Assembly: GCA_000091205.1 (NCBI GenBank)
Contig: AP006497.2
Origin: Cyanidioschyzon merolae
Taxonomy: Eukaryota
DNA: 64,000 bases
Strand: one strand, 5' to 3'
Made by a program: the position numbers and the translations under genes. A model generated the notes under the pieces. That model ran no database searches. It worked only from the letters and a program-made list of their open reading frames with translations, and was not told the origin of the DNA. Shown here one piece after another: positions 1 to 36,856 of the stretch (positions are counted from its first letter, which is position 1; every line of letters starts with the position of its first letter).

Positions 1-239
1 GGGAGCGTCCGCGGGAGACACGCGGTCGGGCGTCGTGTCCAATTTGGGCCGTGCCTCACGCGCAACGTGTCCGGCGGATACAGACATGCGCGCGCACGCA
101 CGCACGCGCCGGCCGGCGCGCCTGCGAGCTAACTACGTCATCGTCATGCACCGCAACTGGATTCCATAGACAGGCGCGTGTCATCTCATGCTCTTTCGAG
201 GTGTAAGGCAGACGCGTTCGATTGCGTCTATTTAAAGTA

Positions 240-700
240 ATATAAAATCCAAGGTATGGAGATGAAAGTCGGGGATCCTGGCGGACCGTCATCGCCGGGC
301 GCCCGGAAAAACGAAAAAGTCCTCTTCTCGCCTGTCATCGAGCGAAGAAGCGCAAGTGACGTAGATGAAGAAGAGTGGAGATAGTCAAGAAAAGGTGCTT
401 GATCCACGAGACGATGACGAGACTGTAGTGGCACAGAGGGCACGAGTTCAATGAGCCCCTGCGATCATGGGTTCAACCACCGGCAATGTACGCGAAGAAT
501 TTCGTGAACCGTGACCCCAACGCCGCCATGAATATAACACGACGTGTGGTGCTGGACACGAGTCCCGCGGAGCTGAGGCACTCTAGTTTTGTGAGGAAAC
601 CGCTCAAGGTCGAATTGTGCAAGAAGAAGTAGAAACCAGTAGCAGGTGACCGGTCAAAAAAAGGCGGGGCGGTGTCGGCGAGTGGGTATGCGTACCCCGC
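240..700 (+). mobile_element. Degraded 3' fragment of a TnpB/Fanzor-like element (copy 3), oriented tail-to-tail with copy 1. Includes a conserved 3' flank.
   Basis: The plus-strand frame at 429-632 translates to ...AKNFVNRDPNAAMNITRRVVLDTSPAELRHSSFVRKPLKVELCKKK*. The RDPNAAMNI stretch matches the RuvC-III consensus RDxNAAxNI and is homologous to RDFNAAINIRRCAVLETRPPE of copy 1. An upstream shifted frame (PVIERRSASDVDEE) resembles IPIDEFRTSHSHHE of copy 1, but with stops and frameshifts. DNA at 600-700 aligns with the reverse complement of 1845-1946. Confidence 0.55.
429..632 (+). pseudogene. C-terminal RuvC-III fragment of a TnpB/Fanzor-like nuclease (copy 3), truncated by an upstream in-frame stop at 426-428.
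   Basis: Direct translation gives a RDPNAAMNI motif. The peptide is homologous to the copy 1 C-terminus. It is inverted relative to 1946-2030. Confidence 0.5.
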
Positions 701-1284
701 TCTACGGTCGTGAGCCATTTTTCGTCTTGCTGAGTATATATATGGACGCTAGTGGAGGCGATGACTTAAACTACGCATAAGCGACATTCCGCGGGGATGT
801 TCCCGAGGGCCTTGTCCTGATGTGTTACCCGGTATCGCGCGCTCCCTGACCAATGTTTCAGTTTGCCGGGCAGTAGGTGAACCAGCCAGCTATCCAGCGG
901 GTTGTTTAGGTACAGGCATATTACATTCCCTTAAATTCACGAATCTTTTTAAGGAATCCTCTTGTTTCATACTACTACTTCCGTGCTTTTCGCGCTTAAA
1001 CTGAAATGCGCACAGAATACTCCGTCATGGATACCGATTGCGCAGCGCCTGCTTCTCTTCCACATGCGTGTGTCTCGGACCTAAAAAGTGCAGTATTTTG
1101 CGGTTATCCTGGAGTGTCGCCCTATCCACCGCAGAAGTAAACTCGTCCGGTGCCTGCTTCTTCCGATGCGCTGCGGCTGTACTGAACAGCAACGCCCGCT
1201 GAGACGCGGTCGTTGTGGAGTATTCACGTCGCAACCCAGCCAAGCGCAGCTTCCATACAAGGAAAGAAAGCTCTAGCGTCTCCT

Positions 1285-1878
1285 TTAAGTGTTGCCGACG
1301 TTGCGTTGGGGAACACCACTGGCCAGTTCGACCTTGGTGATGCGCCCGCCCATCTTCATGATCCGCTGCTGCTCGCTGTACCAGGAAGTGAACGGCACCA
1401 TCTTCGTTGTCGCAACGTTCTGCAACTCGCGACCGCTGTCAACACGTGACTGACTGGGCAGCACATACGAGACCTTAAACATGCGGCGATCATTCGCAAC
1501 GCCAGATGACTTGATGCGCCGCGGTCCGAGGTTCCCCGCGCTGCTCCCGTTCATATCGTACCCTGTCATGCGGACGCTCCAGGACGAGTGTGCCAAGCAC
1601 CGCTGCGACTCTGCAGACTTTGCAGAAGCCTTAACACCTGTTCCAAAGAAACTGGTCTGAACGAACATGGTCAACGAACGAAGAAACACAGAGAACAAAG
1701 ATATCGCGAAGTTGTGAGTCAAAAGACGGTGGTGCAGCGAGCGCAGCCGGCGAGCTCGCTTGCGTATTCTCGCCACGTTCTCGCCGGCCGTGTACAGTAG
1801 TGGCGATCGGCGCGCCTTGGACAAAACGTCTCCAACTGATGTGCAGACGCCTCCCCGTCTTTTTGGACCGGCCACCAA
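1285..1878 (-). CDS. Hypothetical protein, function unknown, lying between the two facing TnpB/Fanzor-like 3' ends. Its start may be non-ATG in the track.
   Basis: 197-aa ORF. Its C-terminal half (…KMVPFTSWYSEQQRIMKMGGRITKVELASGVPQ) looks protein-like, but I cannot assign a family. Confidence 0.25.
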   Translation of the reverse strand: MVAGPKRRGGVCTSVGDVLSKARRSPLLYTAGENVARIRKRARRLRSLHHRLLTHNFAISLFSVFLRSLTMFVQTSFFGTGVKASAKSAESQRCLAHSSWSVRMTGYDMNGSSAGNLGPRRIKSSGVANDRRMFKVSYVLPSQSRVDSGRELQNVATTKMVPFTSWYSEQQRIMKMGGRITKVELASGVPQRNVGNT

Positions 1879-1945
1879 CTACTTCTTCCAATTTTATCTC
1901 ATATAGTTCGACCTTAGAAGGTTGTCCAAAAAAGTACCTTCTTGT

Positions 1946-2557
1946 TCACTCTGGAGGTCTCGTCTCCAGCACCGCACATCTCCTGATATTGATGGCAGCG
2001 TTAAAGTCTCGGTTCGCAAACTCCATACGTTTCTTACCATCGTTGGTTGTACTTACTAATGCAAGTAGCCCTCGAAGTTTCGCCCTCCTTTCCATTTGCT
2101 CTTCCGTCAGCGGTCCGTACTTTTTTGCATCCTCAGGGCTCCGCTGGCACTTTTCCATCTCCACTCTCTGGAGCGTGCGCCCCCGCTCATGGTGTGAATG
2201 CGATGTTCGAAACTCATCTATCGGTATTGTAACAAAACGCCGTGCGCACTCCTTATACGTTCTCGTCGTTGGAGCTGGTGCAGTCCCTTTTTGGGTCTTC
2301 CATCGCCCTGCTCCGTACGCTACTACGAGCCTCTGACTTTCATCCTCCTTCAGGGCACTCAACTGATTGAAAAAATTCGCGAACGCCCGCTGCTTCCCAC
2401 AATACAAGTTCATTCGAAGACGAGCCCACCGGGGCTTGGTATACTCCTCCCACAGCGCATCCCAATGGGCAACACGAACTTCCATGAATTTCCGAAAAGC
2501 TTTAAAGTCCGCTCCTCGACTCATCACCTCGCTCAAAGCTTCCAGGTGCTCGTTCAT
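1946..2557 (-). pseudogene. C-terminal segment of the TnpB/Fanzor-like nuclease. It holds the TnpB-like TSQ-region equivalent and RuvC-III. A single TGA separates it, in frame, from the upstream segment.
   Basis: Translation gives ...RLVVAYGAGRW...FVTIPIDEFRTSHSHHERGRTLQRVEMEKCQ...KRMEFANRDFNAAINIRRCAVLETRPPE*. The RDFNAAINI stretch matches RuvC-III RDxNAAxNI. 'IDEFRTS' resembles the V-P-YTSQ segment that precedes the zinc finger in TnpB. The CxxC...CxxC zinc finger is replaced by a His-rich SHSHH...C stretch. Confidence 0.65.
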
Positions 2558-2566
2558 TCCTGAATT

Positions 2567-3655
2567 TCAAGTCTCGATTTTGTTCCTTGCATTCATGCTT
2601 CCCGATTCTCGATAATATCTCGCTCTCGAGAACCTCAACAGACGCATGTCTTTCTGACATAAGTTACCGTCAGGACCATCTTCCGCACGCTTCGGTGCTG
2701 CGATGGTGATGATATTTGTGTTGCCGGGGTCCGCGCCAATGACAAAGTCGTTATCCTGCACTTTCCGCGTCTCAGGATCTGCTTCTTTCTCATCTTCATC
2801 CTTCGTCACCTCAACGACATGCACGTTATCCTGCACCTGCTGCATCGCAGGATCCTCCTTTTCGTTTTCTTCATCCTTCGCCGCGTCAACGACAAGGTCG
2901 TTATTCTCTACCTCCTGCGTCGCGGGATCCGCCTCCTCCTTTTCCTCATGGTTCGCCGAGGGCGGGACTGGTCGATCTCTCTTCAACCGCCGATAGTGTA
3001 CACACAAGGCTACTCCATCGGTTTCGATTAACCCAGTGGACAACTTTTGCTTGCTCACTCTCAGACGTTTGGAGCTGAAGATATTCTTCCAGGACATCTC
3101 CCGGTTTTCACCGGAAAACTCCTCCCTGCTAACATCGAACTCGGGACTGATCTCCTTCATGATGCCATGAGGGATTCTGGAGTCGATAGTCACGAAATGT
3201 GACTTGATATTGGACATTGGAACGACGTTGAAGCGCTTCTCCTTTAGGACAGCCTTCCTTTCCTCCCACTCTAAATTTTCCCTATTCAGCCTCATCTCTG
3301 CTTTGCGTTCGAGCTCTCGGTCGAGAAATACGAAATATCGCAGGAAAAGGCGATAGTATCTTTCCTTATCTTTTTTCAACTCTGATATCTTGTCTGTTGG
3401 ATTCGCCATCCCCAAGATTGCACGGTGCGCTTGTAGAACCGCGCGGATTACAGAAGCCTCATTCGTGCTCTCGTTTGACCCCTTCTCTCCGGCGAATTCG
3501 ACCTCATCTTGATGCTTACGATCTTTCGTGATGCCATTCATAATCGCCCATTTTCCATTGCGCGATAGGCCCGGGTAGAGTGCAATCACGGCGCGTATCA
3601 TGAAACGTTCGAGGCTCGTTGTCAAATGGTTCTTCAGGTTCGTGAGGTACTTCAT
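2567..3655 (-). pseudogene. Middle segment of the TnpB/Fanzor-like nuclease. It contains a REC/WED-like region, acidic 24-aa tandem repeats and RuvC-I.
   Basis: The segment ends ...DNDFVIGADPGNTNIITIAAPKRAEDG..., matching the RuvC-I consensus GIDxG..N of TnpB/Cas12. It is in the same frame as 1946-2557 but separated from it by TGA at 2567-2569. Its N-terminal part (MKYLTNLKNHL...FMIRAVIALYPGLSRNGKWAIMNG) is homologous to the copy 2 peptide IKYLANPNNHMNMNPERFMIPSIFALYPGGSRKARCAIIHG. Confidence 0.65.
2700..2950 (-). repeat. Three tandem units of about 72 bp inside the nuclease ORF. They encode D/E-rich 24-aa repeats (…KDEENEKEDPAMQQVQDNVHVVEVT…).
   Basis: The units '...ttcatccttcgtcacctcaacgacatgcacgttatcctgcacctgctgcatcgcaggatcctcc...' and '...ttcatccttcgccgcgtcaacgacaaggtcgttattctctacctcctgcgtcgcgggatccgcctcc...' are visibly repeated. 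Confidence 0.6.
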
Positions 3656-3793
3656 CGCTCCGCATGTGTAAATATCCCGGTGACTCTTGTACCGACGAAC
3701 CCGTAAGAGGGATGTTTTTCGTGGAAGGCATGCACTAGCTCATTTTTCCTCCGCGCTTCCTCTGTACCAAGCATCAGGTGATGAATAAAGGTC

Positions 3794-4084
3794 TTATCGA
3801 AAAACCCGTCCGGGAACCTCGACCGTTTCCATGTGCGTCACGTCGCGATACATCTCCCTCGCCAAATACATCAGTCCTGACGACGCCTTGACAATACTCT
3901 TGGAGTACGAGTCGACACGTTTTTTGATAGCGTCTCGCAACTTTTCGCTGTACGGATCCTTGATATATCCAAGAAGAAAGGTTTTCACCACCTTCTCGTC
4001 GTACAGCCGTCTTTCTTGCTGCCTTCGACGTAGGGCCTCCCCCTTTTGCTTCTTTTCCTCTTCCTTTTCTTCTGGAATGGGCAC
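3794..4084 (-). pseudogene. N-terminal segment of the TnpB/Fanzor-like nuclease. The track start is GTG. It is frame-disrupted relative to the 2567-3655 segment.
   Basis: The peptide ...VVKTFLLGYIKDPYSEKLRDAIKKRVDSYSKSIVKASSGLMYLAREMYRDVTHMETVEVPGRVFR* is homologous to copy 2 (VKAFLLWNIKDPYEEKLPEAIRNRVASSSLSVCKASSGIIHLLKEMYDYVMELKTVEVPEELF). An alternative frame over the same DNA encodes a K/R-rich stretch (SRRKGRGKEAKGGGPTSKAARKTAVRR). Confidence 0.55.
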
Positions 4085-5877
4085 TGTTTTTTGTTTTTTC
4101 TCCAGCAGCCGGCGACCCTGGGCCTCCAGGATCGTGAACTTGCTTTTTCACAGCTTTCCTTGTTTTGTTTTTTTTTTGAAAAAGAACGCTCTTTGAACCC
4201 TTCTGTTATATACTGCAAAAAACACTAGACTAGACTTGTTTGAAGTTTGAAACAAAAACGAACTGAAAGACTGTACTTTGCTATGACCTCAACGGAAATC
4301 CAACTTTCTACAGCTGAACAACACGCTAGAGATCAGGATCGCGTTTCCGTTCAACGGAGGCATACGCGTCGTGTCTCATGCCTGCCTGATCTCCCAGTTG
4401 CGCTCACTGAGCGCGATGCGTGCACCGCGCGAGACGCCTCACCGATCAATAAAGGACACGTGTCCGACACCCTGCATTGGCACGTGCGTGTTCGCATCGC
4501 ACTGCAGCCAAAATAACGTATCGTAGATCGGAAACTCACGTAGAATGCACTCCTGCTATAGGCTATGTCGTTGGTGCCTATCGCAGTGCCGCCCTGAAGC
4601 ACAGTCGGTGTTGTGGCACGCTTGGATCTCCATAATGCCTCCAGAAGAAGCGTAGCTTTCGCAGCGGCTCACGCTTGTCTGGATGAGGTGTGCATCACAC
4701 TAGCCTTGAAGAGTTTCGTTAGTTTTATTGATCGTAACCAAAGTAGGCATATTAGTGTTCCCGAACACGGCTACAAGTTTATTCCCTATGCTTGTTATGC
4801 ATGCTGCACGGACGCTGCAGGGAGTATCTAATTTGAATTGTGCTTCTATCCTGCGTCATAGGCTGGTACTGATGACAGCTCAAGTCATTTCCATGCTGCT
4901 TTCGTTGTCTAAATTATGGTGCCTGCTTCGTCCTCCGGATCCGGTGATCTTGGCAGAGGCAGAGCACACTCGACGGGCCCTTTGCTATCGGTTTCAGCTT
5001 CTCCTTGTTCAACTCTGGGCTGGGAGGTTCCCCCATAAAGTTGGACCGCGTCAGCTCCGCCGATCGCGCCTCCACCACCATACATCATCTGACATTGATG
5101 GCGTTTTGTCTAAAACGCTCGTGATAGAGCTGAGGTCAAGAAGCGATCAATCTTGACCGACGCTATCAAACGAGCGGTAACAGAAGCTGAGGGCTGTAGC
5201 CGGCACCAGGTGCTCTGGTGCCTACATGCTGGCCGTGAATCGTGCGTGACGAAGCCGCACAGCATGCCACGGTTTCCTAGTACGTAAACCAAGCACGTAT
5301 TCGAAACGTTCGGGTTCAGTGTGATGACGAGTCGCCGCTGCGGCATTCTGGGAAAATCATCCGAGTGCGCTATGGTTTTTCGAATATCGAGCATCATCAC
5401 GAGTGTGGGTGCGCTTCACTGCACGAGTTGCAACGATCACCGAATCCACCATCATCCAAAAGTGACGAAAATTCACATGCGCACCGGCCTCGCACCTCTA
5501 GGTCAGGACGTGCCCACCAGCACGCAAACAAATTTCGTGCCCCGCTGTGCTTTCACCAAAAACGAAAGGAAACATGCGTTTCCTCGACCAGGGATAGAGG
5601 GTTCCGAATTCCTTCAGATACTGCCGATGTTTCGCCCGAACCCAGACCAGCATCTGCAGTGTGCCCACGAGCATACACAGGATGCCTGCGATTGTTCGCA
5701 TCATCGAGATCAATCCTACGCACGCCAGTACCTCAAATATGCAGTTCGGATACGACACGAACTCGAAAAGCAAGCCGAATGGGATCCGCCACCAGCGGCG
5801 ACCGCGAAACCCGATTGCAAACCGCTCCCGCAAGCCATTTGGGCAAACGAGTGGTGCAGCGCGCATGTTCATATAAT

Positions 5878-5915
<38 letters not shown>
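5878..5915. repeat. (CAG)12 microsatellite immediately upstream of the Mpv17-like start codon.
   Basis: The run gcagcagcag... is read directly from the sequence. Confidence 0.95.
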
Positions 5916-5916
<1 letters not shown>

Positions 5917-5960
5917 TGCAAATACCCCACTGCATCTGCGCAGTTCCTGGACCAGCACCG

Positions 5961-6629
5961 ATGAGGCACGTGCGGGGCAGTCCAGCCGTGCAGGCTGTTG
6001 CTAACTTATACGATCGGTACCTTCGCAGCCTCCAGCGATACCCCGTAACTACAAAGTCGCTGACTGCTGCCTCGGTTGGTGCTGCAGGTGACGCGTTGGC
6101 GCAGTTGCTCGAACGTCGTCAGCGAACACCGACAGCTGAGCGATTGGGAGACCCTGGTCCACAGAAGCCGTTTAACTGGCGAAGGCTAGTGTTATTCGCA
6201 ACGTTCATGGGTGTCTTTAGCGCACCAGTTTCTCATTATTGGTACCTTTGGTTAAGCAAACGCTTTCCCGCAACCAATATGGTAGCGGTTAGCAAACGCG
6301 TTGCCTGTGATCAGTTGCTTATGGCGCCGACAATCATCCCGGCAACACTGTTTTTTCTCGAGTACGCCGGGCGAAAGTTTGTCGCTGGAGAGAATGGTGA
6401 CGGCCTGTTGCGACACGCCTTGCAGGTCGCAAGCGAGGAAACCGGTCGTACGCTGCTGGCGAACTGGACGATATGGCCTATAGCGCAAGTTGTGAACTTC
6501 CGCTTCGTCCGCAACGAGCTGCAGGTCCTGTTCGCAAATCTGGTCGGTGTGGGATGGAATACCTTTCTCAGCCTTGTCGCTGCCGAAAACCTGCAGAAAA
6601 GCCATAAAACATTGACGAAAGCTGATTGA
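5961..6629 (+). CDS. Mpv17/PMP22-family membrane protein.
   Basis: The sequence ...TTKSLTAASVGAAGDALAQ...FMGVFSAPVSHYWYLWL...WTIWPIAQVVNFRFVRNELQVLFANLVGVGWNTFLS matches the conserved Mpv17/PMP22 pattern (GD..Q, H.WY, W.VWP..Q..NF.FVP...RVLF.N.V...WN.YLS). The track start at 5916 is GTG. The first ATG is at 5961. Confidence 0.7.
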   Translation: MRHVRGSPAVQAVANLYDRYLRSLQRYPVTTKSLTAASVGAAGDALAQLLERRQRTPTAERLGDPGPQKPFNWRRLVLFATFMGVFSAPVSHYWYLWLSKRFPATNMVAVSKRVACDQLLMAPTIIPATLFFLEYAGRKFVAGENGDGLLRHALQVASEETGRTLLANWTIWPIAQVVNFRFVRNELQVLFANLVGVGWNTFLSLVAAENLQKSHKTLTKAD

Positions 6630-18766: not shown

Positions 18767-21763
18767 ATGCACTACCCGGCGGGGAACGCACTGCAGCTCG
18801 GCTTTGAGCAGTGTTACTGGAGCCTTGTGGCGCCAAATGCTTGTCCGACGAACAACTCAGCTACTAGTGTATGCGGCGAGTGGGAGCCTGTCCCTGTAGT
18901 GGACGCGGTTCCAGCCCAGAGAGCTGACAGCGGAGCGAGACGATCGAGCTATGAGAAGCTTGTTGCCGCTTCTAGCGGTGACGACTCGAGTGTGCGGCTC
19001 GTTTGCGGCTCAGTGCCTGGTCACTTGTGCAGTGAACCTCGTTGCTCTATGACTGTGCTTTACTTTGAACCTGCGTTCGGACGCATGACGGATCACTTGC
19101 TCTGGATCGAAGAGCAGCCCGATGAAGGCCCTCTAACCGGCAACGCCGTCTTCGTCATGGAAAAGGCCACACATCAAGTGGAAATAGGATGGACGCAGTG
19201 GTCCATCAACCTACGACTGCACCCGCACCTGCAGTTCATTGCATGGGAGCCACCCATACGGAGCGCAGCTGGTGCGTCGCTCATGCTGCATCCTCAAAAC
19301 GGCGGTATGCAGCTCGCGTGGGTGGAGCTGCAGTTTGCTGCTGGAGAAGACTCTGCGCTGGTATATCTGTTGAGTGCTAAGGAGCTTCAACGGCTTCAGT
19401 TGACTCGCAGGCACGCTCGCCAATGGGAAATAGCGGATCTGGATTGCATTGAAATGGTCGTTCCGCTGCCGACACCAGTGCATAGAATCCTGCGATGGAT
19501 TCGGCCTTTTGTCGATTCTGACAAAGCCGTGGTTTTGCTCCATGAAAATCAGATATGCTCACTGCCTTCCGCCCAGCGCATCGACTTGAGTGCTCTAATC
19601 CAACCGAAAGGTCGCATTGATGATGTTGTTGCGCTCACCGATGATCGCATGCGGCAGGTGTGGCTCGCTCGCTGTGTCGATGGAACGACACACGCGATAG
19701 AGGTCGATGCCTCGTTTCGAGCGAGCCCGCTACCGATGATACCCACGTATCGAATGTGGCCGAGTGGTCGACTAGAGGCCACACGACCGCCAATTCCTCG
19801 TGTGTACGTAGTTCGTCAACCACGTTTCCCCGCTGTTGCGATGACGCAGCCAGATGCAGTTACCGCATCGATAGATGGTGATCGGGCGTCGCTCGCTCGA
19901 CATGCGGACGAAGGGCATCCAGCTGGGGCTGTGAGCCTCAGCTCACCATCACACGGAGCGAGGTCAGAGAGCGGCCCATCGCGTGCCTGCATAGTCACAG
20001 AACGCGACTCCGGCGGAATGCGCAGCCCACGATTGTTGCCCGGAAACTTTGTACCGAATCCGCTGACACAATCGCTGTCATCAAAGCGATCGGGGTCAGC
20101 GTGCAGCGATGTACTACCGACTGAAGACCCCGCACAGGGACATTCGTCGATGTCGATGTCGATGACCACCGCAGTCGGCGAGTCGGCACCGAATAGAAGC
20201 CTCGATAAGCGGTCGACGCATCGTTCTGCAGCGCAACGCATCCTCTATTCTACCGGATCCGGAGTCTGCCTCGTTGAGCTCGATGTTTCAAGCGGCGCTG
20301 TAGGCGAGCACATGGTCGTGGACGGAGTAGTTACCGGTCTGTGTTTCTTCGACAGCAGAGAGGCGTTGGTCGTACTGCGCTTGCCGGGCGATCCGCTGAT
20401 GAACGAGCGCATCGCTTGCTTCCCTGCGCACGTAGTGCATCCTTGGTTGACTGAGGGCCGGCAAGGTGCCTGGCCCTTTGCACCGCCGTGCTCCATGGAA
20501 CTTATGCTGGACGCAGTTACCGAAATTGCTGAAGATCGTCAGGCGCGCTTGCAGGAGCAACACGAGCAGCTTGAACGCACGCTGCTGGCGATGCGTCCCG
20601 CCCCGCAGTACGCTTACCTGCTCGGCAAGAACGAGCACGATCGTGAGCGCCTTGCCACCTTGTTCTCGGTGGGTGTCCGAACAGAGCGTGGCTTCGCAGA
20701 AGCGCCGTCATTACGGGTCGCTATACGCCTGTCGAGTGAGATCAGGGATGCGTCTGGGAGTCGACAGGAATTACCATCGCTCTCGGATGCCTGCAGCTTT
20801 GTCGTGCACTTGGGTGCGGCATTGGAAGCCATACCTGGTCCTCTTGCTGGCGCTTGCATGGACAACTTGAACGTGGTGCGATGCATCCCGGCCGGAGACT
20901 GGGTAAGCGCCACCGAAGAGCGTGTGATGCTGGTACCCTTGCCCGCCAACTCCCATGCACCAGTGCGGCTACTGGTGCTGCTCTGCTTTCATGGCCGTTT
21001 GGAGGATCCCGAAGCAGCATCGGCAGCAGTTGCGTCTGCGTCTGGATCGGAGGCTTGGCAGTTAGCTCCGCGAGGTAGCCAAGCCTGGTGGCTCGTGCTG
21101 ACAGAGCGGCATCTCGATGTATTCGACCTCGTCGAGCGCGTCACGGGTGCGGATTTTGCGGCAGCGCTACCCCTGGCACCATATCATCAAAAGCCGACTT
21201 GGTACGGCGACGTACCGATTTTGCCAGCAAGGAAGCGGCCGCGCTGCCAGCGACTTGTTGCTGGTATACCCGGGGCCGTTCTGCGCGAGACGTTCCCGTC
21301 GTGCTGGTCAAACGGCGATGATCGAGACACTGCTACGATTTTCGTTGAGACGCTGCTGGGCAGCAGATTCCAAGTACACATACAACGCCAGGACTCGGAC
21401 CTGGCTCGCTTCCAGGTCCAATTCAGCGGCCCGCTGGACGTGATTTCGTGGGCACGAGTTGCGCTCCGGGAGCGCTGCGACCGACATCGCTCTAGGCGTG
21501 AGGCGGCAGAGGCGCTCCCGGTCAGCGGAGGGCGCGCAGCGTCCAGGACGCCTCACCTGGTGGATTCTGAGTTTCTCAAAGCTTGGCTTGGCGCGCGAAC
21601 AGGGTCGTCAGCGCCTCCATTGTACCCGCGAACGACTGCAATGCCACTTAGACCAACTCCAGCGGAAGAGAGGCATCTGCTCGCCTGGATCCGCGACGGA
21701 TTAGCGACCTTTTCGGAACGTCTCGAGTCTGCGGAGCGGGTGTACGGCATCATTGCGCCTTAA
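18767..21763 (+). CDS. Large hypothetical protein of 998 aa with no recognisable domain.
   Basis: It is a single uninterrupted ORF with an ATG start. Its composition is not merely low-complexity. I could recognise no motif. Confidence 0.45.
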   Translation: MHYPAGNALQLGFEQCYWSLVAPNACPTNNSATSVCGEWEPVPVVDAVPAQRADSGARRSSYEKLVAASSGDDSSVRLVCGSVPGHLCSEPRCSMTVLYFEPAFGRMTDHLLWIEEQPDEGPLTGNAVFVMEKATHQVEIGWTQWSINLRLHPHLQFIAWEPPIRSAAGASLMLHPQNGGMQLAWVELQFAAGEDSALVYLLSAKELQRLQLTRRHARQWEIADLDCIEMVVPLPTPVHRILRWIRPFVDSDKAVVLLHENQICSLPSAQRIDLSALIQPKGRIDDVVALTDDRMRQVWLARCVDGTTHAIEVDASFRASPLPMIPTYRMWPSGRLEATRPPIPRVYVVRQPRFPAVAMTQPDAVTASIDGDRASLARHADEGHPAGAVSLSSPSHGARSESGPSRACIVTERDSGGMRSPRLLPGNFVPNPLTQSLSSKRSGSACSDVLPTEDPAQGHSSMSMSMTTAVGESAPNRSLDKRSTHRSAAQRILYSTGSGVCLVELDVSSGAVGEHMVVDGVVTGLCFFDSREALVVLRLPGDPLMNERIACFPAHVVHPWLTEGRQGAWPFAPPCSMELMLDAVTEIAEDRQARLQEQHEQLERTLLAMRPAPQYAYLLGKNEHDRERLATLFSVGVRTERGFAEAPSLRVAIRLSSEIRDASGSRQELPSLSDACSFVVHLGAALEAIPGPLAGACMDNLNVVRCIPAGDWVSATEERVMLVPLPANSHAPVRLLVLLCFHGRLEDPEAASAAVASASGSEAWQLAPRGSQAWWLVLTERHLDVFDLVERVTGADFAAALPLAPYHQKPTWYGDVPILPARKRPRCQRLVAGIPGAVLRETFPSCWSNGDDRDTATIFVETLLGSRFQVHIQRQDSDLARFQVQFSGPLDVISWARVALRERCDRHRSRREAAEALPVSGGRAASRTPHLVDSEFLKAWLGARTGSSAPPLYPRTTAMPLRPTPAEERHLLAWIRDGLATFSERLESAERVYGIIAP

Positions 21764-32772: not shown

Positions 32773-35169
32773 CTACTGCGCTTGGCCCACGGCCGGTGAA
32801 TCCCGCGCTGGACTTTTGGCATCACATCGGCTATCACAAGCTGATCCCGCCTGCGCTCGAGGTCGTATACTGAACAAATATCCGTCGGCATGTGCCGTAC
32901 GCTTTGGTGAGCTCGGAAATACATGGCGCTCGGGCGCAGGGATCGGTTCGATGATGAAGCCACGAGCAAGCATTTCGTTCTCCGCCGTAATTCGCTGGCG
33001 GCGCAGCGCCTCATCAGCACTGAGATCGTCATCTGGATACAGTTTCTCAGCGGCACACACGTGCCAATCTATGGGTGCTCGTAGCACGTCTGGATCGCCT
33101 TCGCGATTGAAGGTTCCCACAGTCTTAACATCTTGTGGTAACCGACCACGTTTGGGTATCCATAAGAAATGACTGCCTTCATAATAGCAGCACTCCAGGG
33201 CGCGCTGAAAATCGATCGTTTCAAAAGTCAGGTGGGGATACTTGGCCTCGTCCATACACATGACCGATTCATGAGCATCCTGTGCATCCTCGAAAAAAGC
33301 GATCGCCGGTCCGAACGGAGTATCGACCGCGATCAATTCGTATATGGGAAACTCCTCATCAGACCGGATATACGATAGCACGGAAACTTCCTCGACATCC
33401 GTGAACGAGACGCGGACAGGATCACTTACCGGTTCGTGGACACCCTTTGCATTGCCGATTCCGTCGTCAGGAGTCCATCGCTCCTCGTCCACAGGCGGCC
33501 GGCTGGACGTGCGCTCATCCAAATCTCGAGGTAGCAAAGCGAGTGGCGAGCGCTCTGCCCCATGCTCTGCAGGTACGAGGTGTCTCGGCTCCGGTGCTAC
33601 GACTGGAAACGATGACGCTGTGGCGCTTCCAGTCGATCGAGCTCGGCCAGCATCCCCTGATCCCGTACTGCTCGGTTCCGCGGATGTGTCGCTGTCAGCA
33701 GTCGCACGACAGCCACCTGTACCGCGTTCCACTGACGCGGGTACAGAGCCGGCCTGCGAGCGCAGCGGATCGCACGATCTATGACAAGGCGTCATCGGGC
33801 CACTGGTGCCACCGAGAAAGGAACTGGAGCGGGATCCTACCCCTGGCGTCGCCCCCGATGTCCAGTTCCTCGTCATTTTGGTCTCATTGAGCCAAAAAGG
33901 ATTCCACTCAGCTAACTCGCGTTCCCATGCAGCAACAGCTGACCGTTTCACAGCGTCAAGAACAAAAGTGGGCGGTGATTCAAAAGTGGGTAGGCCGACT
34001 TGCTCCCAAATGAAATCCCAGAGGCGCTCGAGCCACCGCAGAGGACTTCCACGACCACTGATCCCGATGTCACGGTCCATTGGTGGCCCTGGAAGGCAGT
34101 CCGCTGACAACGACGGTGCTCCGGATGTCGCATCATACTCTGACACGACGGACTGCTGGCTGTCGTCCGCCCAGGGCCCAAAGCCAAGAAGCCCCCAGAG
34201 ACCACCGCCCCCGCCTAACCCTCGTTTTCGGCGCCAGCGTTGGAGCATTATCTTGTTGATCTCGTTCAGACGCAACCGGAAATCGTCTTCCGAGCTTGAA
34301 AAACTCGCTGGAAGAACCGCGGGGCTCGGGGGCCGCCGCCCTCCAATCGCCACCGTCGACCCGCCTAGCACAGGCTGCTTCGACAGGCTCTCGTTCAATT
34401 TCACCAGTTCTCCAAAAAGCTCCCGCCAACGCAAGCGCTCTGCCTCCTCCGTTTCCACCGCATTCTCTGAGGCGCCAGTCCCGACCGCTAGCGCAGCTCG
34501 CGGCAAGCAGCGAACGCGAGGTATCCCCGGTCGCTCACGCACCAACAACGTAGACGGTGTCACAACACGTCCATTCGAGCAGCCCGCGCTCAGCGTTGTT
34601 GAACTCGGCGATACATAGCCAACACTGAGGCCAGAATCAACCGAGCTCGACTCATGAGAACGCCACCACTGGCTCCGACCTGGAGGCGGCGAAGGCGTTT
34701 CCGTAACAGCTGTAGTGCGCTGCGGTGGACGCTTCCACGCATACGGCCAAACAGACGCCTGTAGTGCGCGCTGCCGCCCGGGCTGTGTTGCGGCAAGTGC
34801 GTTCGTTGCCTCCGATCGAGCCTGTGCGGGCTTCAGCCAAAACATATGCGTCGTGTTAGAAGGAGCCGTGCCCAGGCCTATAGTCCAATGAAAGACGACG
34901 AGTAGCGCGCACTGTTCAAGCGCGTGCGCGCCATCGACGTATCGAGCGCGCCCGGCGGGATTTGGAAATGGGTGCGCAGCGCGCCGAGACGTTGAGATCG
35001 CGCCTTCGGCATCATGGACGCGCACGTCGGTTGCTCGCCGCAAATTGCCACGCACGCGATGGGGTCTAGAAGAAACTGTAATAATTTGTAGATTTATGGA
35101 TGGTATGGATAAGAGGGGACACAGTGCTTGGACGCGCGATCGCCGCAGCTGGGACACGAATGGACACAA
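32773..35169 (-). CDS. Hypothetical protein. Only the C-terminal third looks like a genuine conserved domain. The N-terminal part overlaps decayed TnpB/Fanzor copy 2 and may be a spurious extension.
   Basis: It is a long S/P/R-rich ORF. The C-terminal region is non-repetitive (...EFPIYELIAVDTPFGPAIAFFEDAQDAHESVMCMDEAKYPHLTFETIDFQRALECCYYEGSHFLWIPKRGRLPQDVKTVG...). Confidence 0.3.
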   Translation of the reverse strand: MCPFVSQLRRSRVQALCPLLSIPSINLQIITVSSRPHRVRGNLRRATDVRVHDAEGAISTSRRAAHPFPNPAGRARYVDGAHALEQCALLVVFHWTIGLGTAPSNTTHMFWLKPAQARSEATNALAATQPGRQRALQASVWPYAWKRPPQRTTAVTETPSPPPGRSQWWRSHESSSVDSGLSVGYVSPSSTTLSAGCSNGRVVTPSTLLVRERPGIPRVRCLPRAALAVGTGASENAVETEEAERLRWRELFGELVKLNESLSKQPVLGGSTVAIGGRRPPSPAVLPASFSSSEDDFRLRLNEINKIMLQRWRRKRGLGGGGGLWGLLGFGPWADDSQQSVVSEYDATSGAPSLSADCLPGPPMDRDIGISGRGSPLRWLERLWDFIWEQVGLPTFESPPTFVLDAVKRSAVAAWERELAEWNPFWLNETKMTRNWTSGATPGVGSRSSSFLGGTSGPMTPCHRSCDPLRSQAGSVPASVERGTGGCRATADSDTSAEPSSTGSGDAGRARSTGSATASSFPVVAPEPRHLVPAEHGAERSPLALLPRDLDERTSSRPPVDEERWTPDDGIGNAKGVHEPVSDPVRVSFTDVEEVSVLSYIRSDEEFPIYELIAVDTPFGPAIAFFEDAQDAHESVMCMDEAKYPHLTFETIDFQRALECCYYEGSHFLWIPKRGRLPQDVKTVGTFNREGDPDVLRAPIDWHVCAAEKLYPDDDLSADEALRRQRITAENEMLARGFIIEPIPAPERHVFPSSPKRTAHADGYLFSIRPRAQAGSACDSRCDAKSPARDSPAVGQAQ

Positions 35170-36160
35170 GCAGGGCGCTGATGCTCGGTGCTCCCGGAGC
35201 GCGCTGCACGCATCACAGAGGCTTCATTCGTTCTCCTGTGTGTGATGTCTTCTCGTCGACGAATCCGTTCTCATCTTCATGCTGGCGATCGTTGTTCGAG
35301 CCATGGATGATGGCACATCTCGCCTTGCGAGAGCCGCCCGGGTACAGCGCAAAGATGGAGGGTATCATGAAACGTTCGGGGTTCATGTTCATATGGTTGT
35401 TCGGGTTCGCGAGGTACTTGATTGCGCCGTATTCGTAAACAACCGAGTCGCCCCTGAATAAAATAACGTTGAAGCGGTATTCAGCATAATTTTCATGGAG
35501 GGCATGCACTCGCTCGTTTCTCCTCGACGTTTCCCCCGTGCCAAGCATTAGGCGTCTGTTGCAGGTAACGTTGAAAAGCTCCTCCGGAACCTCGACCGTT
35601 TTCAATTCCATAACGTAATCGTACATCTCTTTCAATAAATGGATTATTCCTGAAGAAGCCTTGCAAACACTCAAGGAGCTGGACGCGACACGGTTTCTGA
35701 TAGCCTCTGGCAGCTTTTCCTCATAGGGATCCTTGATATTCCATAGAAGAAAGGCTTTCACCTCTATCTCGTCGATCTGCAATCTTTCGGCTAGCTTCTG
35801 ACGTCGGACCTCCGGCTTTCGCTTCTTTTCTTCTCCTGTTCCTTTTTACTCGGTTGTGAATTTCGTGTTGTTCTGGCAGCCGGTGATACCGGCCCAGCAA
35901 GATCCTCGACTTCCTTCTGCATAATGCTATGTTTTTGGAAGAAACACACTTTGAACGCATCTGCTATAAACCGTGAAAAATCTCTTGAATCCACTTACTT
36001 GACGCTTGAAGCACAACTGAAATGAAAGACTGTATTTTGTCACAACTTTAACCGAAATATATCTTGTACGGTAGAACGAAACGCTATTCGTTAGAAGCGC
36101 GTTCCTCCTCAACGGCGAGATGCGCGTCGTTGCTCTCGGCTGCGGAATATGGAGGTGCGC
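35000..36160 (-). mobile_element. Decayed N-terminal fragment of a TnpB/Fanzor-like element (copy 2) with a conserved 5' leader.
   Basis: The peptide at 35213-35782 is homologous to copy 1, matching both its N-terminal segment (3794-4084) and the start of its middle segment. The leader at 35950-36160 aligns with 4190-4395. Protein-level similarity continues about 60 nt past the stop at 35213 (HEDENGFVDEKTSHTGERMKPL*CVQRAPGA against HQDEVEFAGEKGSNESTNEASVIRAVLQAHRA). Confidence 0.55.
35213..35782 (-). pseudogene. Truncated N-terminal portion of a TnpB/Fanzor-like nuclease (copy 2).
   Basis: MQIDEIEVKAFLLWNIKDPYEEKL...IKYLANPNNHMNMNPERFMIPSIFALYPGGSRKARCAIIHGSNNDRQHEDENGFVDEKTSH aligns with the copy 1 segments. 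Confidence 0.55.
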
Positions 36161-36856
36161 GACCCGACCCCAATATATAGAACAAAGAGCAGAAACTAAC
36201 CACTAACTTGCAACGACGTTACGATTTCTTTCCCTCTCTATGATAAACATGAAAAGAGGGTAGGGCTTTTCGTGCTGTCGAACGTTCGCCTTCTAGGCCG
36301 AGGTTCCCGCGGGCCGGACGAGTCTGCCGTGCAATCGCTCCGTATTCCTCTGCAGTGGCAGGTGCTGTGGTGAGATCTGAGCAACTCTTCTGCAGCGCAG
36401 GTAATTCTGGGACTCGGAGCGGGTAGCATGCGTCTGGGCGTTGCGCTTGTCCTAGTGGACATCTAGTGTGTCGCTTCGCGCTGTCGCAGGTAGTACGTTT
36501 GTCTGTGCAGATCGCAGGCTCCCAGCATGATAACTAGCCCTGATTCCGTGTCAGATGGAGCATCCCTCGATCCGACGCCCTATGCGGTTTGGCAAAGCCG
36601 TTCCAGCGTGGTGCTGCATCCCTACCAACGATATAGGCGCTTTGGCTGGAACTCAAAGCAGGCACTCGGCATAAGATAGAGCCTAGGAAAACGCCAGCAC
36701 ATCCGAGAGGAAGTAAAACGAACGGAGCCTGGAAACAGAGCGTGGAATCATGGATACGTCAACGCGCGCTATTCTCAAGGGCATCGGTCACGGAACGCTG
36801 GCCTCTGTGTCAACGACTCGCTCGAAACCGAATTCCGTTACGTCTCGCCTCTTCGT

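What the first reader, a model, noticed from the sequence alone, without database searches (positions are those of the whole stretch)
1845..4395. Eukaryotic TnpB-like (Fanzor-type) RuvC nuclease element with recognisable RuvC-I and RuvC-III motifs and a TnpB-like TSQ region
The minus strand carries an approximately 660-aa composite reading frame. Its middle segment ends in DFVIGADPGNTNIITIA, which fits the RuvC-I consensus GIDxG of TnpB/Cas12. Its last segment contains ...FVTIPIDEFRTSHSHH... followed by ...EFANRDFNAAINIRRCAV. RDFNAAINI is a textbook RuvC-III motif (RDxNAAxNI). It is preceded by the TS(Q)-type segment that precedes the zinc finger in IS605/IS607 TnpB. No glutamate occupies the canonical RuvC-II position (QRLVVAYGAGRW), which suggests a rearranged catalytic site. 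The CxxC...CxxC zinc finger is replaced by a His-rich stretch (SHSHH...C). An acidic 24-aa tandem repeat is inserted just before RuvC-I. From established knowledge, TnpB/IscB-family proteins are RNA-guided DNA endonucleases, and eukaryotic members (Fanzor) are transposon-encoded. The element sits among ordinary housekeeping genes in an intron-poor eukaryotic genome. It is the best candidate here for a programmable RNA-guided nuclease system.
Basis: partly seen in the sequence, partly recalled or inferred. Interest (0 to 1): 0.9.

Follow-up and report, generated by a model that had tools for sequence, protein, structure and literature searches.

The report
Dead copy of known Fanzor transposon

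Summary
Window 1946-4084 (minus strand) carries three ORFs in one frame with the quoted motifs. The Fanzor reading is correct. A profile of the family matches the three solved Fanzor1 proteins (E 2.6e-25 to 1.5e-11). An AlphaFold model of an intact relative has only Fanzor1 structures among its significant fold matches (E 5e-16 to 1e-13). The family's invariant D, E and D align with SpuFz1 catalytic D383, E541 and D606.

It is not new. The window is C. merolae 10D DNA (eIF3d 671/671 identical). The element is 86% identical to the published CMe-1A consensus of Bao & Jurka 2013 (about 150 copies, about 3.2 kb, no TIRs).

This copy is a fossil. The start codon is lost, frameshifts occur near 4100 and at 3699-3814, TGA replaces Trp485 and Leu692, and the original stop is lost. 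Only 1 of 40 full-length relatives fetched keeps an intact ORF.

Minor additions:
- The canonical C4 zinc finger is missing across a large sister lineage, not only here.
- The acidic repeat is 25 aa and duplicates the RuvC-I strand.
- The right end has a conserved module of about 75 nt plus a long G·U-rich terminal hairpin. This is a plausible omega-RNA scaffold, but no covariation supports it.

Novelty: already known. Interest: low.

The parts
1743..4391 (-). Core of the CMe-1A-type element shared by all copies. It corresponds to consensus positions ~671-3169 and is 86.1% identical over 2,501 aligned positions.
   Evidence: blastn and global alignment to the published consensus; depth of similarity to 72 loci.
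1743..1792 (-). Terminal right-end hairpin (GCCGGCGAG...CTCGCCGGC). The structure is conserved among copies although the sequence differs.
   Evidence: RNA fold. Terminal 57 nt of 45 copies fold at -20.3 vs -13.1 kcal/mol for controls, p=2e-9, across 19 sequence types. The sense strand is more stable than the antisense, p=1.4e-4.
1784..1857 (-). Conserved right-end module of ~75 nt (…GGCGTCTGCAC…GCCACTACTGTACAC…GGCG). It is a candidate omega-RNA scaffold or cis-acting end and is also present in two ORF-less elements.
   Evidence: nhmmer E=2.9e-22; alignment A3. Covariation is not significant.
1817..1945 (-). Remnant of the last ~43 codons of the ancestral ORF, downstream of the premature stop. 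The ancestral TAG at 1817-1819 is now CAA.
   Evidence: Alignment to the consensus; CMe-1 protein from PMC3627910.
1946..1948 (-). Premature TGA replacing Leu692 of the consensus.
1946..2557 (-). ORF segment 3: the RuvC-II/III half, containing VVAYGAGRW (2300-2326), IDEFRTS with the alternative Glu (2201-2221), the degenerate zinc-finger region (2147-2203) and RDFNAAINI (1985-2011).
2567..2569 (-). In-frame TGA replacing the conserved Trp485 (ETWN in intact homologues).
2567..3655 (-). ORF segment 2: the REC/WED region with the Fanzor1 TDG motif (IETDGVA, 3008-3028), the acidic repeats, and RuvC-I GADPGNT (2717-2737).
   Evidence: TDG hallmark from PMC10711439.
2749..2957 (-). 75-nt (25-aa) acidic tandem repeat, 2.8 copies. 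It is a disordered insertion and its copy number varies between copies.
   Evidence: TRF; 138 nt extra relative to the consensus; pLDDT<50 for the equivalent residues 374-470 of P0001.
3699..3814 (-). Frame-shifted stretch (+1, -2, -5, -2, +2 indels) that separates ORF segments 1 and 2.
   Evidence: compare.
3794..4084 (-). ORF segment 1: the N-terminal region.
4100..4151 (-). Ancestral start region: ATG mutated to GTG at 4149-4151, and a +1 frameshift at ~4100.
4152..4391 (-). Conserved 5' leader shared by all copies (consensus 671-905).
4392..5102 (-). Subfamily-specific 5' module shared with only 6-11 of the fetched loci. It is different from the TE-N2_CMe module of the published CMe-1A consensus. 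Positions 4971-5102 hold a diverged fragment of another Fanzor C-terminus (aa 676-719, 50% identical).
194..679 (+). Internally deleted derivative of the same family (consensus 842-969 joined to 2907-3084, plus its own terminal hairpin). This form is itself repeated in other loci.
35203..36733 (-). Second, 3'-truncated CMe-1A copy (consensus 90-1624, 78.7% identical), including the TE-N2_CMe-like 5' module.

Best explanation
Window ~1743-4391 (minus strand), with a subfamily-specific 5' extension to ~5102, is a decayed copy of CMe-1A. CMe-1A is the non-autonomous repeat family of Cyanidioschyzon merolae whose single ORF encodes the Fanzor1 protein CMe-1.

Shown here:
- The window is C. merolae 10D DNA.
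- The element is 86% identical to the published consensus.
- The family protein has the Fanzor1 fold and the D/E(alt)/D RuvC triad aligned to the catalytic residues of SpuFz1.
- This copy has lost its start codon, carries frameshifts near 4100 and at 3699-3814 and two premature TGA codons, and so cannot make the nuclease.

Inferred from homology with SpuFz1, GtFz1 and PpFz1:
- Intact family members bind an omega-RNA transcribed from the element's right end.
- The candidate scaffold is the conserved ~75-nt module plus the long terminal hairpin.
- The guide would be the flanking sequence just beyond it.
- The complex would cut TAM-flanked double-stranded DNA complementary to that guide with the single RuvC site.

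How the family moves is unknown: it has no transposase, no TIRs and no defined TSD.
For: Organism:
- The eIF3d ORF is 671/671 identical to C. merolae 10D XP_005537639.1.

Family identity:
- blastn to the CMe-1A consensus taken from PMC3627910 supplement 2 gives 88.5% and 83.3% identity over consensus 671-3145.
- Global identity is 86.1%.
- The CMe-1 protein matches at 72% over aa 18-734.

Fanzor1 homology:
- Profile A1 against PDB gives SpuFz1 3.5e-7.
- Profile A2 gives PpFz1 2.6e-25, SpuFz1 3.4e-14 and GtFz1 1.5e-11. DPG aligns with IDPN (D383), DEFRTS with DEYKTS (E541) and NRD with NRD (D606). The catalytic residues are from PMC10432273.
- The AF2 model of the intact homologue P0001 has pLDDT 78.5 and pTM 0.72. 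Its seven Foldseek PDB hits with E<=0.001 are all Fanzor1, with target-normalised TM up to 0.71.
- D, TDG, E and RD are invariant across 28 diverse relatives.
- Distant relatives at E~1e-65 carry PF07282.

Pseudogene status:
- The lesions are listed.
- Only 1 of 40 full-length copies is intact.

Transposon-like behaviour:
- 71 loci were found in metagenomes, in different gene contexts.
- The 3' boundary is sharp.
- Truncated and internally deleted derivatives occur.

Past protein-level selection:
- Majority-base frequency is 0.90 and 0.92 at codon positions 1 and 2, against 0.85 at position 3. The contrast is strongest in the RuvC half.
Against: - Direct Pfam and NCBIfam scans of the window protein are not significant.
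- The canonical C4 zinc finger, part of the original Fanzor/TnpB motif definition, is absent.
- No omega-RNA is demonstrated. RNAalifold finds only 3 pairs. Covariation on the proposed right-end structure is no better than shuffles: 75.9% against 75.6% paired.
- Synonymous sites are not clearly more conserved at the 3' end of the ORF.
- No nuclease activity has been reported for any CMe-1 protein in the papers read.
Confidence: 0.93

Rival explanations
1. The locus is a functional Fanzor gene. On this view the apparent stops and frameshifts are introns, recoding events (TGA read as Trp or Sec) or sequence errors.
For: The three ORF segments happen to lie in one frame. One TGA sits exactly at a conserved Trp codon.
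Against: - There are at least five independent lesions: a lost ATG, a +1 shift at ~4100, a ~115-nt out-of-frame stretch, two TGA codons and a lost stop.
- The consensus and the intact homologue are uninterrupted across all these sites, so they are not introns.
- 39 of 40 other full-length copies are also broken, each at different places.
- From general knowledge, the C. merolae 10D genome is a finished assembly and uses the standard nuclear code.
Confidence: 0.02
2. This is a host multigene family, or a domesticated gene, rather than a mobile element.
For: The family has no TIRs, no TSDs and no transposase (PMC3627910). Codon-position conservation shows that the protein was under selection. 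The element sits ~110 bp upstream of a host cpcD-like gene on the same strand.
Against: - Dozens to ~150 copies diverge by 15-40% and lie in unrelated gene neighbourhoods.
- Nearly all copies are pseudogenes.
- The 3' boundary is sharp, with a shared end module.
- Truncated, internally deleted and ORF-less derivatives exist.
- The closest solved relatives are all transposon-borne Fanzor1s.
Confidence: 0.03
3. The conserved 3' module and terminal hairpin are not an omega-RNA. They would instead be a DNA-level transposition signal (for example a Helitron or HUH-type terminator hairpin) or an mRNA 3'-end element.
For: - The hairpin structure is kept while its sequence changes (19 sequence types).
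- Composite elements look like read-through or tandem joins. CMe-1A is TE-N2_CMe, which also ends in a hairpin by my reading of the consensus, followed by the Fanzor module.
- At least four alternative 5' modules exist.
- There is no covariation support for the internal helices.
Against: - G·U pairs are enriched and the sense strand folds better than the antisense. That fits a sense-strand RNA, although single-stranded DNA tolerating G·T is not excluded.
- In characterised Fanzor1 systems the omega-RNA scaffold is exactly the right-end region and ends in a double-stranded stem (PMC10432273, PMC10711439).
- Bao & Jurka, who defined the Helitron2 group in the same paper, left CMe-1A unclassified.
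Confidence: 0.3

Closest known systems
CMe-1A / CMe-1 (Fanzor1 family of Cyanidioschyzon merolae; Bao & Jurka 2013, Mob DNA 4:12, PMC3627910)
   Same: Same organism. The window copy is 86% identical in nucleotides to the published 3,169-bp consensus across positions 671-3145. It has the same single-ORF layout and the same protein (72% identical despite decay). The paper reports about 150 copies, each ~80% identical to the consensus, no TIRs and undetermined TSDs. All of this matches what is seen here.
   Different: The window copy has a different 5' module (4392-5102) in place of the TE-N2_CMe 635-bp module. It has two extra 25-aa repeat units and a different terminal hairpin sequence, and it is a pseudogene. 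My folds suggest that the terminal hairpin's 3' arm runs ~10-15 nt beyond the published consensus end.
Solved Fanzor1 nucleases SpuFz1 (8GKH, 9CEU-9CEZ), PpFz1 (9CF0-3) and GtFz1 (9CER-T)
   Same: Same overall fold over the full length (Foldseek E 5e-16 to 1e-13). Shared features are the DPG RuvC-I motif, the WED TDG motif, the alternative Glu in DE[FY]xTS and the RD motif of RuvC-III, all aligned to SpuFz1 D383/E541/D606. All are transposon-borne and multicopy, and ORF-less relatives share the right end, like the Spu-1 'ghost' elements.
   Different: Sequence identity is only 12-15%. All three solved proteins keep the CxxC...CxxxxC zinc finger, which the CMe-1 lineage lacks. CMe-1 has a disordered acidic repeat insertion before RuvC-I. 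The Spu-1 elements have 30-nt inverted repeats; CMe-1A has none. No omega-RNA or nuclease activity has been shown for CMe-1.
Prokaryotic TnpB (IS200/IS605, IS607) and Cas12f (Pfam PF07282 Cas12f1-like_TNB, PF01385 OrfB_IS605)
   Same: A single RuvC nuclease with the D...E...D triad, a TS motif before the TNB region and the RDxNAAxNI signature. The gene is carried at the right-hand side of a mobile element, with the guide RNA encoded at the right end.
   Different: There is no significant direct Pfam hit (E=0.09, RD motif only). The Glu is relocated. The N-terminal REC/WED half is much larger. There is no zinc finger and no TnpA partner. The host is eukaryotic.

Membership tests
CMe-1A repeat family of C. 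merolae (Repbase; PMC3627910) | Nucleotide similarity to the published consensus at the level typical of family members (~80%) | tested here: met
   86.1% identity over 2,501 aligned positions, covering consensus 671-3145.
CMe-1A repeat family of C. merolae (Repbase; PMC3627910) | Located in the C. merolae nuclear genome | tested here: met
   The window eIF3d is 671/671 identical to C. merolae 10D XP_005537639.1. Neighbouring genes are eukaryotic and uninterrupted.
CMe-1A repeat family of C. merolae (Repbase; PMC3627910) | 5' 635 bp equal to TE-N2_CMe | tested here: not met
   The main copy has a different 5' module upstream of consensus position ~671. It is therefore a sister subfamily sharing the Fanzor core. 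The second copy, at 35203-36733, does carry the TE-N2-like module.
Fanzor1 | RuvC-I with a DPG motif | tested here: met
   GADPGNT at 2717-2737. D and G are invariant and P nearly invariant (>=90%) in 28 relatives. The motif aligns to SpuFz1 IDPN (D383), PpFz1 DPG and GtFz1 DPG.
Fanzor1 | Rearranged RuvC-II: canonical Glu replaced by Gly or Pro, with an alternative Glu just before the TS motif (PMC10530073, PMC10711439) | tested here: met
   VVAYGAG occupies the canonical position. The invariant E in DEFRTS (2201-2221) aligns to SpuFz1 E541.
Fanzor1 | RuvC-III RD(x)NAA motif | tested here: met
   RDFNAAINI at 1985-2011. The invariant D aligns to SpuFz1 D606.
Fanzor1 | Characteristic TDG motif in the WED domain (PMC10711439) | tested here: met
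   IETDGVA at 3008-3028. T, D and G are invariant in alignment A2.
Fanzor1 | C4 zinc finger (CxxC...CxxC) between the TS motif and RD (original motif of PMC3627910; regular expression of PMC10711439) | tested here: not met
   The window has TSHSHHERG...LVSTTNDG and the consensus has TSYTHHELGC...LVSTTSDG. None of the four Cys positions is kept. Distant relatives P0122-P0126 and all three solved Fz1 proteins keep them. Of the 124 top representatives that carry the E motif, 106 also lack a canonical finger. The authors of the family nevertheless list CMe-1 as a Fanzor1.
Fanzor1 | Overall fold of the solved Fanzor1 proteins | tested here: met
   The Foldseek top 7 hits are SpuFz1, PpFz1 and GtFz1 (E 5e-16 to 1e-13, target-normalised TM 0.50-0.71). 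The next hits are weak Cas12 matches. Tested on the intact homologue P0001, which is 73% identical to the window protein.
Fanzor1 | Catalytic residues brought together in three dimensions | not testable with these tools
   Model coordinates are not exposed. Only the sequence and profile alignment to the catalytic residues could be checked.
Fanzor1 | Cognate omega-RNA from the right end, with the guide beyond the element boundary | tested here: inconclusive
   The conserved right-end module and a stable terminal hairpin are present. There is no covariation support, no Rfam match and no expression data.
Fanzor1 | RNA-guided, TAM-dependent dsDNA cleavage | not testable with these tools
   This needs biochemistry. 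For this copy it is excluded by the disabling mutations.
TnpB / OrfB_IS605 / Cas12f1-like_TNB (Pfam) | Score above the Pfam gathering threshold | tested here: not met
   PF07282 scores 13.3 bits against a cut-off of 26.3 (E=0.09). PF01385 gives no hit, and NCBIfam gives none.

The most novel reading that the evidence does not exclude
The CMe-1 type belongs to a large, uncharacterised Fanzor1 lineage that has dispensed with the canonical zinc finger. Its right end is a ~75-nt conserved module closed by a long, G·U-rich, sequence-variable hairpin. On this reading that end is both the omega-RNA scaffold and the only cis-requirement for mobilisation by a still unknown, TIR-less mechanism, for example rolling-circle-like read-through that produces the alternative 5' modules. 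The lineage would then be a distinct functional variant of Fanzor1, not just a decayed member.
Probability: 0.2. Interest if true: 0.5.

Novelty: already known. Interest (0 to 1): 0.15.

Why it matters
The result matters little as a discovery. Fanzor1 elements in C. merolae were catalogued in the paper that founded the family, and Fanzor RNA-guided cleavage has been established since 2023. The value lies in closing the lead: the locus is correctly identified, but it is a fossil and cannot be a working programmable nuclease.

Two side observations could interest specialists. First, a very large zinc-finger-less Fanzor1 lineage exists, and none of its members has been tested in the papers I read. 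Second, the family's right end is structured and hairpin-terminated. That end, together with the rare intact copy (L001 / P0001), would be the obvious starting material for testing a thermo-acidophile-derived Fanzor.

Tried and rejected
- Direct Pfam and NCBIfam scans of the composite and of its segments gave nothing significant.
- Exact-sequence look-up of the 362-aa ORF found nothing on record.
- RNAalifold on 53 right ends gave only a 3-bp helix.
- A covariation count on the structure taken from the intact copy was indistinguishable from shuffles. I therefore do not claim the internal helices.
- A test for extra synonymous-site conservation at the ORF 3' end, which would indicate an overlapping RNA, gave no clear signal.
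- An Rfam E-value scan of 1-6000 gave only a chance isrG hit.
- A search for empty (uninserted) sites among the fetched loci, meant to define termini and TSDs, found none. Of the two candidates, one is the same filled locus (L025) and the other (L072, 82%) was not examined.
- A search for ORF-less 'ghost' elements carrying the right-end module found only 2 of 77 in this Fanzor-biased sample and none in the window.
- I considered a Helitron classification because of the 3' hairpin and the composite 5' modules. I did not adopt it: no Rep/Hel gene and no TC...CTRR ends were seen, and Bao & Jurka left the family unclassified.
- I considered an intron explanation for the out-of-frame stretch. I rejected it because the consensus ORF is continuous there.

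Full report
**Observation**

The minus strand of window 1946-4084 carries three ORFs: 3794-4084, 2567-3655 and 1946-2557. All three lie in the same reading frame. The quoted peptides are present:
- GADPGNT at 2717-2737
- IDEFRTS at 2201-2221
- RDFNAAINI at 1985-2011
- VVAYGAGRW at 2300-2326, where TnpB normally has its RuvC-II glutamate

Tandem Repeats Finder confirms an acidic repeat at 2749-2957 with a 75-nt period and 2.8 copies. The unit is therefore 25 aa, not 24. The last unit is the RuvC-I strand itself.

**Relatives and direct family scans**

Pfam and NCBIfam scans of the window protein are not significant. The only hit is PF07282 at E=0.09, confined to RDFNAAINIRR.

A database search found 97 relatives, nearly all from JGI metagenomes. 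One is an intact 752-aa protein, P0001, at 73% identity. In the intact relatives the window's TGA at 2567-2569 is a Trp (ETWN), and the junction between the first two window ORFs is continuous. The window copy is therefore broken.

**Is it a Fanzor?**

A profile of 17 family members matched SpuFz1 (8GKH) at E=3.5e-7. A profile search of the protein database reached more distant relatives that carry PF07282, at E around 1e-65.

With those relatives included (alignment A2), the profile matched three solved Fanzor1 proteins:
- PpFz1 at 2.6e-25
- SpuFz1 at 3.4e-14
- GtFz1 at 1.5e-11

In these alignments the family's DPG aligns with SpuFz1 IDPN, DEFRTS with DEYKTS, and NRD with NRD. The SpuFz1 catalytic residues are D383, E541 and D606 (PMC10432273). 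The 65-residue spacing from E to D in the aligned SpuFz1 segment equals 606-541.

D, the WED-domain TDG, E and RD are invariant across 28 diverse relatives. DPG, the relocated glutamate and TDG are the published Fanzor/Fanzor1 hallmarks (PMC10711439; PMC10530073).

An AlphaFold2 model of P0001 has pLDDT 78.5 and pTM 0.72. Only the acidic repeat (residues 374-470), residues 193-207 and the first three residues fall below pLDDT 50. Its seven Foldseek matches in the PDB with E<=0.001 are all Fanzor1 structures, at E 5e-16 to 1e-13 and target-normalised TM up to 0.71. The next matches are weak Cas12 hits.

**It is a published family**

Bao & Jurka 2013 (PMC3627910) describe CMe-1A in Cyanidioschyzon merolae:
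- about 150 copies, each ~80% identical to a consensus of ~3.2 kb
- a 734-aa single-exon Fanzor1 protein
- no TIRs, and TSDs undetermined
- the first 635 bp equal another repeat, TE-N2_CMe

I took the consensus and the protein from their supplementary files. The window copy aligns to consensus 671-3145 at 83-88% identity, or 86.1% over 2,501 positions.

The window itself is C. merolae 10D DNA. Its eIF3d ORF is 671/671 identical to XP_005537639.1. Its neighbours are intron-less eukaryotic housekeeping genes: Mpv17/PMP22, Hus1, eIF3d, a family-A DNA polymerase and phosphoacetylglucosamine mutase.

**State of this copy**

Relative to the consensus, the window copy shows these changes:
- ATG mutated to GTG at 4149-4151
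- a +1 frameshift at ~4100
- an out-of-frame stretch at 3699-3814
- TGA for Trp485 at 2567-2569
- TGA for Leu692 at 1946-1948
- the ancestral TAG, at 1817-1819, changed to CAA
- 138 extra nucleotides of acidic repeat

It cannot encode the nuclease. This is typical of the family: of 40 full-length copies recovered from metagenome loci, only one (L001) has an intact ORF with all motifs. Codon positions 1 and 2 are more conserved than position 3 (0.90 and 0.92 against 0.85), most clearly in the RuvC half. The protein was therefore under selection while the family was spreading.

**Anatomy and other copies**

Similarity to 70+ loci begins sharply at window ~1775-1783 and falls off at ~4391-4420. 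A subset of copies continues to 4969 or 5102.

Upstream of the shared core, at least four unrelated 5' modules occur among the copies. The published CMe-1A corresponds to one of them. The window copy has another, which includes a diverged fragment of a Fanzor C-terminus at 4971-5102.

The window also holds two further copies:
- a 3'-truncated CMe-1A copy at 35203-36733, which carries the TE-N2-like module
- an internally deleted derivative at 194-679, a form that recurs in other loci

**Right end**

The last ~75 nt before ...GGCG are strongly conserved. They are followed by a hairpin whose sequence differs between subfamilies while the structure persists.

The intact copy and the window copy both fold into the same layout, with z of about -2.6. 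The terminal 57 nt of 45 copies fold at -20.3 kcal/mol against -13.1 for nearby control segments (p=2e-9), and they fall into 19 sequence types. G·U pairs are enriched, and the sense strand folds better than the antisense (p=1.4e-4); the copies are related, so these p-values are only indicative.

Two ORF-less elements share only this end. They resemble the Spu-1 'ghost' elements that share the omega-RNA region of SpuFz1.

This fits an omega-RNA scaffold that ends in a double-stranded stem, as described for Fanzor1. It is an inference, for four reasons:
- RNAalifold finds almost nothing.
- Covariation is no better than shuffles.
- Rfam has no match.
- I have no expression data.

**Zinc finger**

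The CxxC...CxxC finger is absent from the window copy, from the consensus and from the whole near clade. More distant relatives and all three solved Fanzor1 proteins keep it.

An exhaustive profile search found 8,080 representative clusters at E<=1e-3. Of the 124 best that carry the E motif, 106 lack a canonical finger. The loss is therefore a feature of a large lineage, not of this locus.

**Verdict**

The element is a decayed copy of an already described Fanzor1 repeat family in its type organism. Novelty: already known. Interest: low.

Noticed in passing
window 1285-1666 (-): A host gene with a CpcD/allophycocyanin-linker domain (PF01383, E=5.5e-10). It begins ~80-120 bp downstream of the Fanzor element's terminal hairpin, on the same strand. 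The listed 197-aa ORF (1285-1878) is an artefactual read-through from the element into this gene.
   Followed up: partly
window 32773-35169 (-) and 18767-21763 (+): Two long ORFs (798 and 998 aa) have no Pfam match, even at E<=0.1. The first abuts the truncated CMe-1A copy at 35203-36733.
   Followed up: partly
L035:1121-1341, L004:810-1030; L057:4743-4963, L069:4742-4962: Some elements share only the last ~100 nt (right-end module plus hairpin) of the CMe-1 family, with unrelated or strongly diverged sequence upstream. They are analogous to the 'ghost' elements of Spizellomyces.
   Followed up: partly
loci L002-L072, upstream of the shared core (equivalent to window 4392-5102): At least four unrelated, individually repeated 5' modules are joined to the same Fanzor core at nearly the same point. 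The published TE-N2_CMe module is one of them and itself ends in a 9-bp hairpin. This suggests read-through or tandem-join origins.
   Followed up: partly
proteins P0163-P0306 and P0091-P0109: A very large Fanzor1-related lineage (thousands of 50%-identity clusters) lacks the canonical C4 zinc finger. Most members keep only one Cys, in ...RGLLWC.ST....
   Followed up: partly
P0097 (Haematococcus lacustris QJQ45_001972): An 861-aa protein combines a hAT C-terminal dimerisation domain (PF05699, E=2.5e-13) with a Fanzor-like C-terminal half of this family.
   Followed up: no
window 2749-2957 and homologues: The number of acidic 25-aa repeat units varies between copies: the consensus has about one, the window has ~three (2.8 by TRF) and P0001 has about five. 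Each unit is a degenerate duplicate of the segment that includes the RuvC-I beta strand.
   Followed up: partly
window 5860-5900: A perfect (CAG/CTG)n-type run, read as poly-Q or poly-A/L in overlapping ORFs, lies just upstream of the Mpv17/PMP22 gene (5916-6629).
   Followed up: no
precomputed annotation of homologues: Many family members carry the precomputed Pfam label PF26935 (DUF8286, 'weak'). That family is absent from the local Pfam copy, so the curated databases apparently file this Fanzor1 lineage as a domain of unknown function.
   Followed up: no
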